Assembly (NCBI GenBank): GCA_021851895.1
Contig: JAJZQJ010000001.1
Coordinates: forward strand, 71,338 to 135,337
From: a bacterium
GTDB lineage: Bacteria; Patescibacteriota; Minisyncoccia; Phycocordibacterales; UBA6899
Reading direction: 5' to 3'
Length of the DNA stretch: 64,000 nucleotides
Position 1 is the stretch's first letter; each line of letters starts with the position of its first letter. Both the position numbers and the translations under genes were made by a program. The notes below the pieces were generated by a model. The model did not search any database. It was not told the origin of the DNA and saw only the letters and a list, made by a program, of their open reading frames with translations. Positions 27,086 through 60,471 of this stretch are shown here, piece by piece.

Positions 27086-27163
27086 AAATCGAAATATTGA
27101 CAAGTGCAAAAAAGAGATGTAGTATTTTCTTGGCAACCTTGCCCTTTCAATAGGAGCTCTCTC

Positions 27164-27535
27164 ATGAGCGCGATCACCATCAAACGCCTGAATCCCTACA
27201 CGGAGACGCTTTGCGGACTCCACTGGGGAGTCGGTGCTGGCATTATCCTTGCGGCGTGCTTCGGCATGACGCAGGACATGCTTTCCACCATCAACGTGCA
27301 CATCTACTGCCACCAGTACACTGGTGCGATCGTCGGTGCGATCGTCGTCGCACTCTATGCGCTCCTTAGCCGTGAGGTGCGCACGCTATTCACGATCACC
27401 ACGCTCATCTCGACGGCTCTCTGCTTCTCGATGGTGCAACATCAAATCAATGACGTGCTCACGATCTGCAGCATCATCGCGGCCATCCTGCTCGTCTACG
27501 GGACATGCATCATGGTTGAAAGAAACTGGCACTAA
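27164..27535 (+). CDS. Small hydrophobic membrane protein (123 aa)
   Basis: AGGAG 8 nt upstream of the ATG at 27164; three predicted TM helices. Confidence 0.45.
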   Translation: MSAITIKRLNPYTETLCGLHWGVGAGIILAACFGMTQDMLSTINVHIYCHQYTGAIVGAIVVALYALLSREVRTLFTITTLISTALCFSMVQHQINDVLTICSIIAAILLVYGTCIMVERNWH

Positions 27536-53151: not shown

Positions 53152-53898
53152 CTACTTCTTCTTGCCCCCCTTCTTGCCGCCCTCTTCCTGCTTCTTGCCG
53201 CCGCCGACCCCGATCTTGCCGGGGTACAGCGCGGCACGGCTCATCTGGTTGGCGCGCTGCCTGCTCTCGCGAGCCTTGCGCTCCTCGGCCTTATCGGCCT
53301 CGGACTCCGGGCCAGCGACGCGCCGGTAGAGCGTCAGCGGCTGATGGAGCTCAGGGTGGAACAGGACCAGCTGGCCGACGTTCTCGGCCTTGACGATGAA
53401 CCCGCAGCTGACCCACTCCTCATTGCTGAGGTGGTGCTTCAGCTCGGACTCGATGACCTCGCAGGTGGAGGTGATGATCGCGGGGACCTTCGTGCCGGTC
53501 GTCTTGATGGCGACGAGCACCTGGACCTTCTCGGTGAAGTAGGCCTTCGCCCCGAGGAGCACAGCCGCGCGCAGGAGCGCACTCATGCGCTTGCCGCGCT
53601 TCTCCACGTTGTCGGCCTTGAGGTTACCGAGGACGAAGTCGTGCTGCACGACGAGGAGCTTCTCGGGAATCTCCCGGGGCGCGTAGCGCGCCAGGTCCCT
53701 GAAGACGAACTCGGGGAGGAGGCCATTCTCGATGAAGAGATCGGCCGCCTCGGAGAACTTGTGCTCCTTGAGCAGCTCCTTGAGCGTCTTGATGTTGGCG
53801 TCGAACTTGTCCGGGCGCACGAACGACGGGGGCTTGGGCCCCTGCTTCTTGCTGGTCTTGTCGGTGGTGGCGGCCGGAGCCGAGGCCTGGGTGGCCAT
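53152..53898 (-). CDS. Hypothetical protein encoded in GC-rich islet (248 aa, K/G-rich C-terminal tail)
   Basis: GC-rich with strong GC3 bias, unlike all neighbouring genes. GAGGTG sits 5 nt upstream of the ATG. The protein is non-repetitive, whereas the opposite-strand ORFs read as L/E/G/R junk. C-terminus GGGKKQEEGGKKGGKKK. I recognise no family. Confidence 0.5.
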   Translation of the reverse strand: MATQASAPAATTDKTSKKQGPKPPSFVRPDKFDANIKTLKELLKEHKFSEAADLFIENGLLPEFVFRDLARYAPREIPEKLLVVQHDFVLGNLKADNVEKRGKRMSALLRAAVLLGAKAYFTEKVQVLVAIKTTGTKVPAIITSTCEVIESELKHHLSNEEWVSCGFIVKAENVGQLVLFHPELHQPLTLYRRVAGPESEADKAEERKARESRQRANQMSRAALYPGKIGVGGGKKQEEGGKKGGKKK

Positions 53899-54109
53899 AA
53901 TTGCACCTCGCTTTTAGAGGGTTTAGGAAATGTACATGCAACGGGCGTTCCCGTGGCATGTACATAATACCATAGATTGCAATTTTGTCAATACATCAAA
54001 TATATTGGTTTAATGTTCAGTTATATTGACAAATATAATATTTTATTGTATTATTACAATGGATAGCAAATATGCTTGGTCGATACCAAGCCTGCGCCAA
54101 GGAGCGCTC
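53899..54109. promoter_or_regulatory. AT-rich divergent promoter region with inverted repeat TTGTCAATA...TATTGACAA
   Basis: tttTGTCAATAcatcaaatatattggtttaatgttcagttataTTGACAaatat lies between the two divergently oriented GC-rich genes. Confidence 0.4.
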
Positions 54110-54439
54110 ATGACACAGAAACAGTTCTATCTTGCCTTCGGAGTGCTCGTAATCGCGGTGTGCCTCGCTGGCATCATCTTCGGCAACACCAAGCCCAACA
54201 CGACACCCGCCCCGGCCCCCTCCGTCGAGAAAATCGAGGAGAGCCTCAACGGGGTGCCAACCGGCGACTCCTACGTCCTCGTCATCTACACGATGAGTGG
54301 GACACCTGATACGGGCCTGCTGTTCCGGCAGAACAAGCGCCTCGAGGAGATGGGCTACAAGATGGATCCCAGCACTTTCAGAGTGTCTGAGGGGAACAGC
54401 CAGTGCGTCATGCACGCCGTCTATCACAAGATCAAGTAG
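54110..54439 (+). CDS. Small membrane-anchored hypothetical protein in GC-rich islet (110 aa)
   Basis: AAGGAG 6 nt upstream of the ATG at 54110; one TM helix (FYLAFGVLVIAVCLAGIIFG); high GC3; followed by terminator AAGGGCATCCcacGGGATGCCCTTttt. Confidence 0.5.
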   Translation: MTQKQFYLAFGVLVIAVCLAGIIFGNTKPNTTPAPAPSVEKIEESLNGVPTGDSYVLVIYTMSGTPDTGLLFRQNKRLEEMGYKMDPSTFRVSEGNSQCVMHAVYHKIK

Positions 54440-54486
54440 CGCGACCCAACACAAAAGGGCATCCCACGGGATGCCCTTTTTCATAT

Positions 54487-59374: not shown

Positions 59375-59698
59375 TTACTTATCAATGATCGCATAGATAT
59401 TTGCTTCGCTGAGCAAAACATACTCGACGGCCTCAAGTGTGAGATCCTCGACATCGTAACCGCGTTTGAAATAGACCTCATCACCGACACGCACATCGAG
59501 CGCAACGCGCTCGCCATCATTATTGCGACGTCCATTCCCCACCGCGACAACTTTTCCTTTTTCGATCTTCTGCTCATCGTCCTTCTTGGAGAGAATGATT
59601 CCTGAGGCGGTCTTCTGCTCACCCTTCTTACTTTCAGGGAGAATGAGTACTCGATCGGCGAGTAATGAGATATTTAATGTATGCTTATCTTTTCTCAT
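59375..59698 (-). CDS. groS: Co-chaperonin GroES
   Basis: LNISLLADRVLILPESKK...GKVVAVGNGRR..., mobile loop; 13-nt spacer to groEL. Confidence 0.9.
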   Translation of the reverse strand: MRKDKHTLNISLLADRVLILPESKKGEQKTASGIILSKKDDEQKIEKGKVVAVGNGRRNNDGERVALDVRVGDEVYFKRGYDVEDLTLEAVEYVLLSEANIYAIIDK

Positions 59699-59856
59699 AT
59701 GTGCAATATATACCTTATAGAAGGTGAGCGTATTATAGCCAGCACACCACTTCTAGGCAAGGGATATATGAGCGAACAAACAGCAGAAAACTGCATATTG
59801 ACTCCAGTAACATCTTGTGTAAGAGTATTGCAAGGAACAATGACAAGGAGCTCCTT

Positions 59857-60111
59857 ATGGCACCACTCGGAACCAGCGACCAGGTCAAGCAGTGCATCAT
59901 CTCCGGCACCGACACCGAGAAGCACCTGATGAAGGAGCTGCTCAGCGTCACCCAAAAGAACGGCGACGTACACCGCGCCCTCGTCTGCACCTCCTGCGGT
60001 GCGAGCGTCACCACCGTGACCGACAAGAACGGCCTCACGCTCAGCCCTGCTGTCCCGTTCGCCTGGGCCAAGTGCCTCGACGACGAGCGGGATCGCTGGA
60101 ATCGCCGTTAA
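59857..60111 (+). CDS. Small Cys-containing hypothetical protein in second GC-rich islet (84 aa)
   Basis: AAGGAG 7 nt before the ATG at 59857; codon usage GC3-rich like 53152-54439; MAPLGTSDQVKQCIISGTDTEKHLMKELLSVTQKNGDVHRALVCTSCGAS...; terminator CACCCGCATAcatgtTATGCGGGTttttt follows. Confidence 0.45.
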   Translation: MAPLGTSDQVKQCIISGTDTEKHLMKELLSVTQKNGDVHRALVCTSCGASVTTVTDKNGLTLSPAVPFAWAKCLDDERDRWNRR

Positions 60112-60231
60112 CAAGGCCATCCACCCGCATACATGTTATGCGGGTTTTTCTGACCCCGAGAAGGTGGCGAGGGCTTTGGTAAGCCGATAGAGCACTTGCG
60201 AAATACCCCGTTCTATGTATAATAGGAGTAC

Positions 60232-60471
60232 ATGGAACTTCAGCAGTCACTGCAATTGGCAGACATCATTCTCTCAGTCCTCATCATTGCCCTCATCCTT
60301 CTCCAGCGCTCTGGAGCCGATGTTGGTAGCGCATTTGGCGGAGGCGATAATTCAGGAAACGTCACATATACACGCCGTGGTTTTGAGCAGGTACTCTTCG
60401 TAGCATCTATCATTGCCGGCGTCCTCTTTGTGCTCCTCAATCTCGCACTCCTCAAGTATCCTCTTGCATAA
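60232..60471 (+). CDS. secG: Preprotein translocase subunit SecG
   Basis: ILSVLIIALILLQRSGADVGSAFGGGDNSG...RRG.EQVLFVASIIAGVLFVLLNL; TATAAT-AGGAG-ATG upstream. Confidence 0.8.
   Translation: MELQQSLQLADIILSVLIIALILLQRSGADVGSAFGGGDNSGNVTYTRRGFEQVLFVASIIAGVLFVLLNLALLKYPLA

What the first reader, a model, noticed from the sequence alone, without database searches (positions are those of the whole stretch)
59840..60140. Second GC-rich islet: small Cys-containing ORF between groES and secG
59857-60111 again has GC3-saturated codons (ggcaccgacaccgagaagcacctgatgaaggagctgctcagcgtcacc...) and encodes an 84-aa protein with spaced Cys (CIISG...CTSCGAS...AKC). It is preceded by a perfect AAGGAG and followed by a local-type terminator.

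It has the same compositional signature as the 53.1-54.4 kb islet 6 kb away, so it may have the same donor. Small, cysteine-bearing, and foreign: it could be a toxin, an antitoxin or a metal-binding peptide.
Basis: seen in the sequence. Interest (0 to 1): 0.55.

Follow-up and report, generated by a model that had tools for sequence, protein, structure and literature searches.

The report
Resident small zinc-protein gene, stably GC3-rich
The GC-rich patch is a real gene for a small, probably zinc-binding protein found only in a narrow group of uncultured Paceibacterota bacteria; it is not a recent foreign insert, because related genomes carry it in the same place and all keep its odd G/C-ending codon usage.

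Summary
Window 59857-60111 (+) is an 84-aa ORF with GC3 0.86, against 0.505 +/- 0.063 for 51 other ORFs (z = 5.7). It has an AAGGAG ribosome-binding site, its own promoter and a hairpin terminator, and it lies between groES and secG.

The "foreign, same donor" reading is mostly not supported.
- A search of 1.84 billion proteins found only four homologues (90 aa, 51-61% identity), and where a source is named it is Candidatus Paceibacterota.
- All of them lie in the same slot just upstream of secG, and the promoter, ribosome-binding site and terminator are conserved.
- Flanking genes have diverged to synonymous saturation, and the ORF's own synonymous sites are fully randomised. GC3 is still 0.67-0.89 in every orthologue, against 0.40-0.59 for neighbours.
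- The favoured codons (GCC, GGC, GAC, AGC, TAC) are rare in the genome and in groEL. GC2 and the lysine content are ordinary.
- The 53-kb islet gene (248 aa, GC3 0.94) behaves the same way.

So the bias is a maintained, gene-specific trait. The cause is unresolved.

The protein is an orphan. It has a confident alpha-beta4-alpha model, invariant Cys13/His23/Cys44/Cys47 and no partner gene. It evolves fast, and its tree conflicts with groES, which suggests allele exchange within the clade. The public annotation called the antisense shadow ORF instead.

The parts
59798..59803 (+). -35-like hexamer TTGACT of the small gene's own promoter
   Evidence: TTGAC is invariant, at fixed spacing, in all five orthologous loci (alignment A5). 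The exact pattern occurs once in the window. Promoter function is inferred, not shown.
59816..59826 (+). conserved TGTG-TAAGAG(T) block, the probable extended -10 region, 16 nt after the -35
   Evidence: TGTGTAAGAC/G is conserved in all five loci. secG's promoter has the same layout (TGTG-TATAAT). The consensus scan did not call it because the hexamer is weak.
59845..59850 (+). Shine-Dalgarno sequence AAGGAG, 6 nt before the ATG
   Evidence: Read from the sequence. AAGGAG is invariant in all five loci.
59857..60111 (+). 84-aa ORF (stop included): an orphan small protein with GC3 0.86, invariant Cys13, Lys22, His23, Cys44, Cys47, the TVTDK-G-L motif and a C-terminal NRR
   Evidence: dN/dS is 0.13-0.75 in this frame. 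The only indel is an 18-nt in-frame gap. The AlphaFold2 model has pLDDT 83.6 and an alpha-beta4-alpha layout.
60123..60150 (+). intrinsic terminator: 9-bp stem ACCCGCATA/TATGCGGGT followed by a T-run
   Evidence: A hairpin plus T-run is present at the same place in all five loci, with compensating sequence differences.
59695..60120 (-). 141-aa antisense 'shadow' ORF; not a gene
   Evidence: The public assembly called this ORF. It is interrupted by 2-5 stops in every antisense frame in L003. Its high GC1 (0.70) simply mirrors the GC3 of the sense gene.
59732..59760 (-). groES promoter (TTGCCT-17-TATAAT), back to back with the small gene's promoter
   Evidence: conserved in the window, L003, L004 and L005. 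This is context only. In L007 the small gene is not next to groES.
60196..60471 (+). secG with its own promoter (TTGCGA-16-TATAAT at 60196-60223; ORF 60232-60471), the constant right-hand neighbour
   Evidence: secG follows the small gene in every locus.
53152..53898 (-). 248-aa orphan gene of the other islet: GC3 0.94, same codon choices, Lys-rich ends, own promoter, 5'-UTR hairpin and terminator
   Evidence: The orthologues P0006 and P0007 (83% and 54% identity) have GC3 0.94 and 0.90, and L011 keeps the synteny with the M48 peptidase gene.
54110..54439 (+). small membrane-anchored orphan gene between the M48 peptidase gene and the 248-aa gene: GC3 about 0.73, the third GC3-raised gene
   Evidence: The orthologue in L011 (348-743) is 33% identical and has GC3 0.64.

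Best explanation
This is a resident, clade-restricted, monocistronic gene. It has its own sigma-70-type promoter, a strong Shine-Dalgarno sequence and an intrinsic terminator. It encodes a soluble protein of 84-90 aa.

The protein is predicted to fold as helix, four-stranded antiparallel sheet, helix. I infer that one zinc ion holds the fold together, bound by Cys13 (helix 1), His23 (the loop before strand 1) and the Cys44-x-x-Cys47 knuckle in the strand 2-3 turn. The most conserved surface is the strand 3-4 hairpin (TVTDK-G-L-L-P-x-x-PF-W) plus the C-terminal W-N-R-R. I take this to be a binding surface for a conserved cellular partner, so the protein would act as a small zinc-stabilised adaptor or regulator, not as an enzyme, a toxin or a metal store. 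That function is inferred.

The gene has occupied the slot just upstream of secG since before the five known lineages split.

Its saturated use of G/C-ending, mainly C-ending, codons is not a fading trace of import. It is a stationary property renewed in each lineage by a force acting on synonymous sites of this reading frame. My preferred reading, at about 0.4, is selection at the codon or mRNA level. This could be translation tuned to C-ending codons, including the NAC codons whose decoding depends on tRNA position-34 status, or protection of the mRNA from A/U-directed RNases. The same force acts on at least two other clade-specific orphan genes 6 kb away.

The coding sequence also evolves fast, and alleles have been exchanged between lineages.

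Shown here: the gene is real, its expression signals and location are conserved, the GC3 bias persists through synonymous turnover, the codons used are rare ones, and the gene tree conflicts with that of groES.

Inferred: zinc binding, the adaptor role, and the cause of the bias.
For: The gene is real and resident.
- An exhaustive phmmer search and a profile search find only four homologues.
- All lie directly upstream of secG, and three of the four also have groES-groEL-NrtR on the other side.
- Promoter block, AAGGAG and terminator hairpin are conserved.
- dN/dS is 0.13-0.75, and the antisense ORF is broken in L003.

The bias is maintained.
- Orthologue GC3 is 0.70, 0.86, 0.89 and 0.67, against 0.40-0.59 for the neighbours.
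- Flank dS is 1.2 to beyond saturation.
- At conserved residues, codon identity between orthologues equals a within-amino-acid shuffle in all 10 pairs (p 0.047-1.0). groES and groEL still show residual identity in most pairs.

It is not ordinary translational optimisation.
- The preferred codons GCC, GGC, GAC, AGC, CCC and TAC make up 9%, 17%, 26%, 8%, 10% and 31% of their families genome-wide.
- They are no commoner in groEL, which uses GAT 79%, TAT 90% and GGT 53%.

It is not a high-GC proteome.
- GC2 is 0.47 in the target and 0.39 in the 248-aa gene.
- The 248-aa protein has 29 Lys, all AAG.

The bias follows the coding strand.
- C3 exceeds G3 in genes on both strands.
- NCC exceeds NCG, the reverse of the genome background.

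The other islet behaves the same way.
- Its orthologues are syntenic with GC3 0.90-0.94.
- Its synonymous sites are more conserved than the shuffle (75% against 62%, p<0.0005), although the proteins are only 54% identical.

Fold and ligands.
- The model has pLDDT 83.6 and pTM 0.66.
- C13, H23, C44 and C47 are invariant.
Against: - Only five distinct sequences exist, so the saturation tests rest on 37-59 codons per pair and have limited power.
- L003 and L007, at GC3 0.70 and 0.67, are about what neutral amelioration from roughly 0.95 would give.
- No highly expressed reference set such as ribosomal proteins lies in the window. groEL, groES and rpoBC are the only proxies.
- No tRNA complement, expression data or polymorphism data were available.
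- Zinc binding is inferred from invariant residues and their positions in the secondary structure. I could not read the model's coordinates to check the geometry.
- There is no significant structural neighbour. The best PDB match has E 0.068, and the best viral match has E 0.014 and TM-score 0.58.
- The quartet conflict shows lateral movement of alleles, which keeps a reservoir-import scenario alive.
Confidence: 0.55

Rival explanations
1. Recent horizontal acquisition from a high-GC donor, the same donor as the 53-kb islet, not yet ameliorated.
For: GC3 is 0.86 and 0.94 in a genome whose genes average 0.50. The two islets share codon choices typical of high-GC organisms (GCC, GGC, GAC, CTC/CTG, ACC).
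Against: - The gene is present in the same slot, with the same regulatory signals, in four relatives whose flanking genes are synonymously saturated.
- No homologue exists outside the clade in 1.84 billion representative proteins, phage genomes, plasmids, viral contigs, GTDB species genomes or JGI metagenome contigs.
- There are no mobility genes, no adjacent tRNA gene and no flanking direct repeats.
- GC2 and the Lys content are ordinary.
- The promoter, ribosome-binding site and terminator are of the host's own type.
Confidence: 0.05
2. Ancient acquisition followed by repeated re-import. The ORF is a cassette that keeps being replaced by homologous recombination from a GC-rich reservoir, such as a phage, a plasmid or a GC-rich sister lineage of the clade. 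It therefore never stays long enough in one genome to ameliorate.
For: - The quartet topology of the ORF is (window,L005)|(L003,L004) with 90-93% bootstrap. groES, 160 bp away, gives (window,L004)|(L003,L005) with 98%.
- The 5'-UTR and terminator sequences group L003 with L005, as the flanks do, so the breakpoints lie near the ORF ends.
- There are two allele classes (C-x-[SC]-CGAS and CPGCGAH) and a mosaic N-terminus.
- In Lloydbacteria the same slot holds an unrelated gene.
Against: - No reservoir copy was found anywhere.
- All known alleles sit in the chromosomal slot.
- The amino-acid composition is not that of a high-GC organism.
- The 248-aa islet gene is equally GC3-rich. With the three sequences available, the window is closest to the contig from the L004 metagenome, as in the flanking genes, so no exchange is apparent.
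Confidence: 0.17
3. GC-biased gene conversion at a recombination hot spot. Frequent recombination within this ORF drives AT-to-GC fixation at weakly constrained sites, which are the synonymous ones.
For: There are signs of recombination in the ORF. In bacteria, recombining genes have higher GC3, mainly through non-optimal GC-ending codons (PMC4450053). That matches the rare GC-ending codons seen here.
Against: - The size of the effect, +0.35 to +0.45 in GC3, is far larger than the between-class differences I recall for bacteria (my own knowledge).
- The bias follows the coding strand: C3 is about twice G3 for genes on both strands, and NCC exceeds NCG, the reverse of the background. Conversion bias should be strand-symmetric.
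- Variable non-coding bases right next to the ORF stay AT-rich.
- A-ending codons are almost absent from the 248-aa gene, 1 of 248.
Confidence: 0.13
4. Extreme translational selection in a very highly expressed gene. C-ending codons would be the true optimal codons, and groEL and rpoBC would be poor proxies.
For: The ribosome-binding site is a perfect AAGGAG and the terminator is strong. The 248-aa gene has a near-consensus promoter. In many bacteria, C-ending NNY codons are read best by G34 tRNAs (my own knowledge).
Against: groEL and groES, normally among the most expressed genes, prefer GAT, TAT and GGT, and show no shift towards the islet's codons. The small gene's -10 hexamer is weak. Slow-growing organisms with reduced genomes usually show weak translational selection (my own knowledge).
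Confidence: 0.07
5. Toxin, antitoxin or anti-phage defence component.
For: The protein is small, fast-evolving and lineage-specific, and its alleles have been exchanged. Weak, non-significant fold matches include MqsA-like, repressor-like and anti-Cas9 proteins.
Against: The gene is monocistronic between two housekeeping genes that have their own promoters, and it has no partner gene in any locus. There is no PADLOC, Pfam, NCBIfam or PHROG hit for any member.
Confidence: 0.03

Closest known systems
Compositionally atypical 'islet' genes explained by horizontal transfer and amelioration (the Lawrence-Ochman model; my own knowledge)
   Same: A short stretch whose third-codon-position composition lies 5-7 sd from the host's, with codon choices that resemble a high-GC organism's.
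   Different: Orthologues in lineages that have diverged to synonymous saturation keep the atypical composition. There is no donor homologue, no mobility signature and no shift in GC2 or amino-acid content, and the expression signals are native. The amelioration model predicts decay towards 0.5, which three of the five lineages do not show.
GC-biased gene conversion in recombining bacterial genes (PMC4450053)
   Same: GC3 is raised through non-optimal GC-ending codons in a gene that shows signs of recombination.
   Different: The effect is far larger. It is asymmetric with respect to the coding strand and stops sharply at the ORF boundaries.
Codon-biased translation of stress-response genes through tRNA reprogramming (PMC5114619, PMC10702489; titles and abstracts only)
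   Same: A subset of genes is set apart from the rest of the genome by synonymous codon choice, which could serve as a regulatory layer.
   Different: Those cases, as I recall them, involve moderate enrichment of particular codons. Here nearly every codon family is driven to G/C endings. No link to tRNA modification has been tested here.
Small single-zinc proteins with a Cys-x-x-Cys knuckle (zinc ribbons, the N-terminal domain of MqsA, the Yippee/Mis18/GFA 'Mss4-like' folds)
   Same: A small beta-rich domain with a Cys-x-x-Cys in a hairpin turn plus two further invariant ligand-type residues. There are weak sequence hints to Mis18-alpha (E 0.89) and GFA (E 0.059 for one member).
   Different: It has only one Cys-x-x-Cys. 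The other candidate ligands are a helix Cys and a loop His. No family model and no solved or viral structure matches significantly.

Membership tests
Recently transferred genomic islet | Composition clearly outside the host's distribution | tested here: met
   GC3 is 0.86 against 0.505 +/- 0.063 (z = 5.7), and no 85-codon segment elsewhere reaches it.
Recently transferred genomic islet | Absent from the same site in close relatives | tested here: not met
   It is present in the same slot in L003, L004, L005/L006 and L007. Only the distant Lloydbacteria carry a different gene there.
Recently transferred genomic islet | Homologues in a plausible donor lineage or mobile element | tested here: not met
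   There are no hits outside the clade.
Recently transferred genomic islet | Mobility signatures such as an integrase, an adjacent tRNA gene or flanking direct repeats | tested here: not met
   The neighbours are groES and secG. The only tRNA gene is 11 kb away. No flanking repeats were found.
Recently transferred genomic islet | Composition decays towards the host's with time (amelioration) | tested here: not met
   GC3 is 0.86-0.89 in three lineages despite complete synonymous turnover. L003 and L007 (0.70, 0.67) are compatible with partial decay.
Type II toxin-antitoxin pair | Two small adjacent co-transcribed genes | tested here: not met
   The gene is monocistronic with its own promoter and terminator, and no partner appears in any locus.
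Type II toxin-antitoxin pair | Match to a known toxin, antitoxin or defence family | tested here: not met
   There is no Pfam, NCBIfam, PHROG or PADLOC hit.
Zinc ribbon / classical small zinc finger | Two Cys-x-x-Cys (or Cys-x-x-His) knuckles that contribute four ligands | tested here: not met
   Only one Cys-x-x-Cys (44-47) is present. The other invariant candidates are the single residues Cys13 and His23.
Zinc ribbon / classical small zinc finger | Zinc actually bound by the four residues | not testable with these tools
   The model's coordinates could not be read. This needs metal analysis or a solved structure.
Metallothionein-like or metal-storage peptide | High Cys content (typically above 15%) in repeated Cys-x-Cys or Cys-x-x-Cys clusters | tested here: not met
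   The window protein has 4 Cys in 84 residues, of which 3 are conserved.
Yippee / Mis18 / GFA (Mss4-like zinc fold) | Significant sequence or fold match | tested here: inconclusive
   Only sub-threshold hits were found: Mis18-alpha E 0.89 and GFA E 0.059 for one of five members. None of these folds appears among the top Foldseek matches.
Protein-coding gene (as opposed to a chance ORF or the antisense ORF) | Reading frame kept open and under purifying selection across relatives, with conserved translation signals | tested here: met
   The frame is open in all five loci, the only indel is in-frame, and dN/dS is 0.13-0.75. The antisense frames are broken in L003. The ribosome-binding site is invariant.

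The most novel reading that the evidence does not exclude
In this Paceibacterota clade, a set of lineage-specific orphan genes forms a separate 'codon dialect'. The set includes this 84-aa protein, the 248-aa Lys-rich protein and a small membrane protein. Near-saturated G/C-ending, mostly C-ending, codons that are rare in the rest of the genome are actively maintained by selection on synonymous sites over a time span long enough to randomise those sites. This would mark a codon-based regulatory or mRNA-stability layer in an organism with a reduced genome, where translational selection is thought to be negligible.
Probability: 0.25. Interest if true: 0.7.

Novelty: new variant of a known kind. 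Interest (0 to 1): 0.48.

Why it matters
Atypical GC3 is routinely read as recent horizontal transfer, and the amelioration clock is used to date such transfers. In this case that inference fails. The atypical codon usage is conserved in orthologues after full synonymous turnover. It uses codons that are rare for the genome, and it is not accompanied by a shift in amino-acid composition.

If selection is the cause, this is a compact natural system for studying synonymous-site selection in candidate-phyla-radiation bacteria. If conversion bias is the cause, it would be an unusually strong bacterial example.

There is also a practical point. Gene callers trained on the genome's own frame bias pick the antisense shadow ORF, so this family and the 248-aa family are under-represented or wrongly represented in protein databases.

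The protein itself is an orphan with a confident predicted fold and a probable zinc site, and it has no structural relative.

Tried and rejected
Searches that found nothing useful:
- Pfam, NCBIfam, PHROGs and PADLOC scans of the protein and of all family members gave nothing significant.
- The word-indexed homologue search with the single sequence found nothing. An exact look-up of the 84-aa product also found nothing, because the public record called the antisense ORF.
- tblastn against phages and plasmids gave only chance-level hits.
- PDB sequence searches with the single protein and with the profile gave only chance-level hits.
- Scans of GTDB genomes, JGI metagenome contigs and IMG/VR with the family profile found no relatives. 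Scanning the metagenome contigs with an invariant 26-nt secG stretch also found nothing. The viral scan for the 248-aa family was negative too.
- Rfam found no RNA family at the locus.

Ideas tested and rejected:
- A structured RNA as the cause of the GC richness. The transcript's folding energy is only marginally below its shuffles (z = -1.8).
- The antisense ORF as the true or a second gene. It is broken in L003.
- A promoter motif shared between the islets. TTGAC-N13-TGTGTAAGA occurs only at the target.
- Flanking att-like repeats. None were found.
- Homology with the Lloydbacteria gene in the same slot. There is none.
- A role as a groESL regulator. This is weakened because in L007 the gene is not next to groES.

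The AlphaFold2 model of the 248-aa protein is too poor to use (pLDDT 46).

Literature searches on GC3 in candidate-phyla-radiation genomes found nothing relevant.
Full report
1. THE OBSERVATION

The region holds an 84-aa ORF on the + strand, from ATG 59857 to TAA 60111. Its GC1, GC2 and GC3 are 0.58, 0.47 and 0.86. Fifty-one other long ORFs of the window have mean GC3 0.505, sd 0.063 and maximum 0.715, so z = 5.7. None of 13,988 sliding 85-codon segments taken from them reaches 0.86.

AAGGAG lies 6 nt before the ATG. A 9-bp hairpin with a T-run follows the stop at 60123-60150. The neighbours are groES (59375-59698, -) and secG (60232-60471, +).

The other islet is real too. ORF 53152-53898 (-) encodes 248 aa with GC3 0.94. 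Its codon choices are the same as the target's.

2. WHICH STRAND IS THE GENE

The window matches contig DAHVZP010000016.1 of GCA_027330905.1. There the gene caller annotated the antisense 141-aa ORF (59695-60120, -), and likewise a 207-aa antisense ORF over the 248-aa gene.

These are shadow ORFs. The antisense frames carry 2-5 stops in the orthologous locus L003, and their high GC1 only mirrors the sense GC3.

The + frame is open in all five loci. Its only indel is an in-frame 18-nt gap, it keeps an invariant ribosome-binding site, and its dN/dS is 0.13-0.75.

3. DISTRIBUTION

No profile library matches the protein. An exhaustive phmmer search of 1.84 billion representative proteins found two relatives and one chance hit. 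A profile search of 5.8 billion proteins found four relatives, all 90 aa and 51-61% identical. One of them is from a Candidatus Paceibacterota metagenome-assembled genome, GCA_035583355.1.

Nothing was found in phage genomes, plasmids, IMG/VR, GTDB species genomes or the JGI contig collection.

Every homologue lies directly upstream of secG.
- In L003, L004 and L005/L006 the other neighbour is groES, as in the window. L003 and L004 are long enough to show groEL and NrtR beyond it as well.
- In L007 the other neighbour is an endonuclease/exonuclease/phosphatase-family gene. The unit therefore travels with secG, not with groES.
- The nearest GTDB genomes with a similar SecG are two Lloydbacteria. 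One of them keeps groES | X | secG | SBP_bac_5, but X is an unrelated 108-aa gene with ordinary GC3 of 0.51.

4. EXPRESSION SIGNALS

The DNA alignment of the five loci (A5) shows:
- an invariant TTGAC;
- 16 nt later, a conserved TGTGTAAGA(C/G) block, with the same layout as the secG promoter (TGTG-TATAAT);
- an invariant AAGGAG;
- a terminator hairpin that is kept through sequence change.

secG has its own promoter after that terminator. The gene is therefore a self-contained, host-type transcription unit with no operon partner.

5. IS IT FOREIGN?

Three lines of evidence argue against recent import.

(a) Time. groEL, groES, NrtR and SBP_bac_5 differ between these genomes by dS of 1.2 to beyond saturation.

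(b) Persistence. Orthologue GC3 is 0.70 (L003), 0.86 (L004), 0.89 (L005/L006) and 0.67 (L007), beside neighbours at 0.40-0.59.

(c) Turnover. At residues that are identical between two orthologues, the share of identical codons equals what a shuffle within each amino acid gives, in all ten pairs (p 0.047-1.0). groES and groEL still show residual identity in most pairs (the pooled four-fold-site version is).

The synonymous sites have therefore been rewritten while staying G/C-ending. With that much turnover, a neutral decay from about 0.95 towards 0.50 would leave roughly 0.65. That fits L003 and L007, but the three lineages at 0.86-0.89 are about 4 binomial sd higher. This last estimate is my own calculation and is approximate.

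The composition also does not look like a high-GC proteome. GC2 is 0.47 in the target and 0.39 in the 248-aa gene. The 248-aa protein has 29 Lys, all AAG, and only one A-ending codon in 248.

There is no mobility signature.

The 248-aa gene behaves in the same way. Orthologues come from two of the same metagenomes (83% and 54% identity), have GC3 0.94 and 0.90, and keep synteny with the M48 peptidase gene. Its synonymous sites are more conserved than the shuffle (75% against 62% identical codons, p<0.0005). Its well-conserved neighbour M48 gives 50% against 40%.

6. WHAT KEEPS GC3 HIGH?

Ordinary translational optimisation is unlikely. The favoured codons GCC, GGC, GAC, AGC, CCC and TAC make up 9%, 17%, 26%, 8%, 10% and 31% of their families in the window's large genes. 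They are not enriched in groEL, which uses GAT 79%, TAT 90% and GGT 53%.

Conversion bias is a serious rival. The ORF shows signs of recombination (section 7), and recombining bacterial genes are known to gain non-optimal GC-ending codons (PMC4450053). Four observations argue against it as the sole cause:
- C3 is about twice G3 in genes on either strand.
- NCC exceeds NCG, the reverse of the genome's background.
- The variable non-coding bases beside the ORF stay AT-rich.
- The effect is very large.

The mRNA is not unusually structured (z = -1.8).

My preferred reading, at modest confidence, is selection at the codon or mRNA level on a small set of clade-specific genes. Codon-biased translation (PMC5114619, PMC10702489) is the nearest described concept. 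This was not tested here.

7. EVOLUTIONARY MODE

The protein is 44-71% identical among lineages whose SecG is 94-97%, GroEL 89-92% and GroES 76-86% identical.

Quartet analysis gives (window,L005)|(L003,L004) for the ORF, with 90% bootstrap on protein and 93% on DNA. The topology favoured by groES, (window,L004)|(L003,L005) at 98%, gets 0-0.2% support in the ORF.

The 5'-UTR and the terminator group L003 with L005, as the flanks do. The two allele classes (CPGCGAH against C-x-[SC]-CGAS) and a mosaic N-terminus are visible in the alignment.

This points to exchange of ORF-sized alleles within the clade, or to long-lived allele classes. With four or five taxa it is suggestive, not conclusive.

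8. THE PROTEIN

AlphaFold2 with only five sequences gives pLDDT 83.6 and pTM 0.66. The layout is helix 6-16, strands 25-32, 38-44, 50-55 and 61-69, then helix 72-82.

The invariant residues include C13, K22, H23, C44, C47, G48, A49, T53-K57, G59, L60, P64, P67, F68, W70 and N82-R84. C73 is not conserved.

C44-x-x-C47 sits in the strand 2-3 turn, C13 in helix 1 and H23 just before strand 1. I infer a single structural Cys3-His zinc site, but I could not check its geometry.

The two hairpins carry an internal repeat, SVTQKNG and TVTDKNG, which is also visible in the DNA.

No solved or viral structure matches significantly. The best PDB match has E 0.068. The best viral match is an uncharacterised Gordonia phage protein (E 0.014, TM-score 0.58). 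There is no obvious signal peptide or membrane segment on reading the sequence.

My functional proposal is a small zinc-stabilised adaptor or regulator that binds a partner through the conserved strand 3-4 hairpin and the basic C-terminus. This is inference only. Toxin-antitoxin and metal-storage roles fail their defining features (see the membership table).

9. VERDICT

The sequence observation is correct and far beyond chance. The interpretation as a foreign islet from a shared donor is not supported. The gene is a resident orphan of a narrow Paceibacterota clade, and its extreme GC3 is a maintained trait shared with neighbouring orphan genes.

The protein family is uncharacterised, and the window's assembly annotates it on the wrong strand. 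The persistence of a 'foreign-looking' codon usage through complete synonymous turnover is the unusual part. Its cause is unresolved, and the evidence rests on five sequences.

Noticed in passing
window 60232-60471 (secG); L003 8417-8656, L004 5221-5460, L005 1229-1468: secG is almost invariant at the DNA level among lineages whose other genes are synonymously saturated. Column identity is 92%, the first 57 nt of the ORF are identical, dS is 0.10-0.58, and four-fold sites are 68-94% identical against about 32% expected. Either there is a strong synonymous constraint, such as an overlapping RNA element, or secG was recently exchanged across lineages.
   Followed up: partly
window 59695-60120 (-) and 53344-53967 (+): The public assembly GCA_027330905.1 annotates the antisense shadow ORFs (141 aa and 207 aa) instead of the GC3-rich sense genes. 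Both exist in the protein collection as singleton clusters. Gene callers tuned to the genome's high GC1 appear to invert such genes.
   Followed up: yes
window 54026-54484: The real gene here is on the + strand: 54110-54439, a membrane-anchored protein with GC3 about 0.73, whose orthologue in L011 (348-743) is 33% identical. The 155-aa minus-strand ORF 54017-54484 is another shadow.
   Followed up: partly
window 59712-59725 (- strand RNA, groES 5'-UTR): The conserved inverted repeat ACCTT-loop-AAGGT lies between the groES -10 hexamer and its start codon, and its 3' arm contains the only Shine-Dalgarno-like sequence. The arms are conserved and the loop varies in the window, L003, L004 and L005. 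It could be an RNA-thermometer-like element. No CIRCE element was seen.
   Followed up: no
window 53932-53963 (- strand), 5'-UTR of the 248-aa gene: A long, nearly perfect hairpin (GTACATGC...GCATGTAC with an inner ACGGG/CCCGT stem) lies between a near-consensus promoter (TTGACA at 53991-53986) and the ribosome-binding site. Its inner stem recurs in L010.
   Followed up: no
window 59943-59964 and 60012-60033: An internal direct repeat within the small ORF (82% identical over 22 nt) encodes SVTQKNG and TVTDKNG at the two beta-hairpins. This suggests the four-stranded sheet arose by duplication of a hairpin.
   Followed up: no
L009 4451-4777 (Candidatus Lloydbacteria, MHLP01000041.1): The groES-secG slot holds an unrelated 108-aa gene with its own TTGACG-17-TGTGATAAT promoter and terminator and ordinary GC3 of 0.51. 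The slot seems to accept different small genes in different lineages.
   Followed up: partly
window 27104-27535 (+): Another ORF with no family match has raised GC3 (0.72) and a hydrophobic product. It may belong to the same class of GC3-raised orphans.
   Followed up: no
L003 1373-5017; L004 151-1789: In the relatives, the NAD-related genes next to NrtR (NAPRTase, NUDIX) and two genes with no family match have moderately raised GC3 (0.62-0.76), against 0.44-0.57 for the housekeeping genes around them.
   Followed up: no
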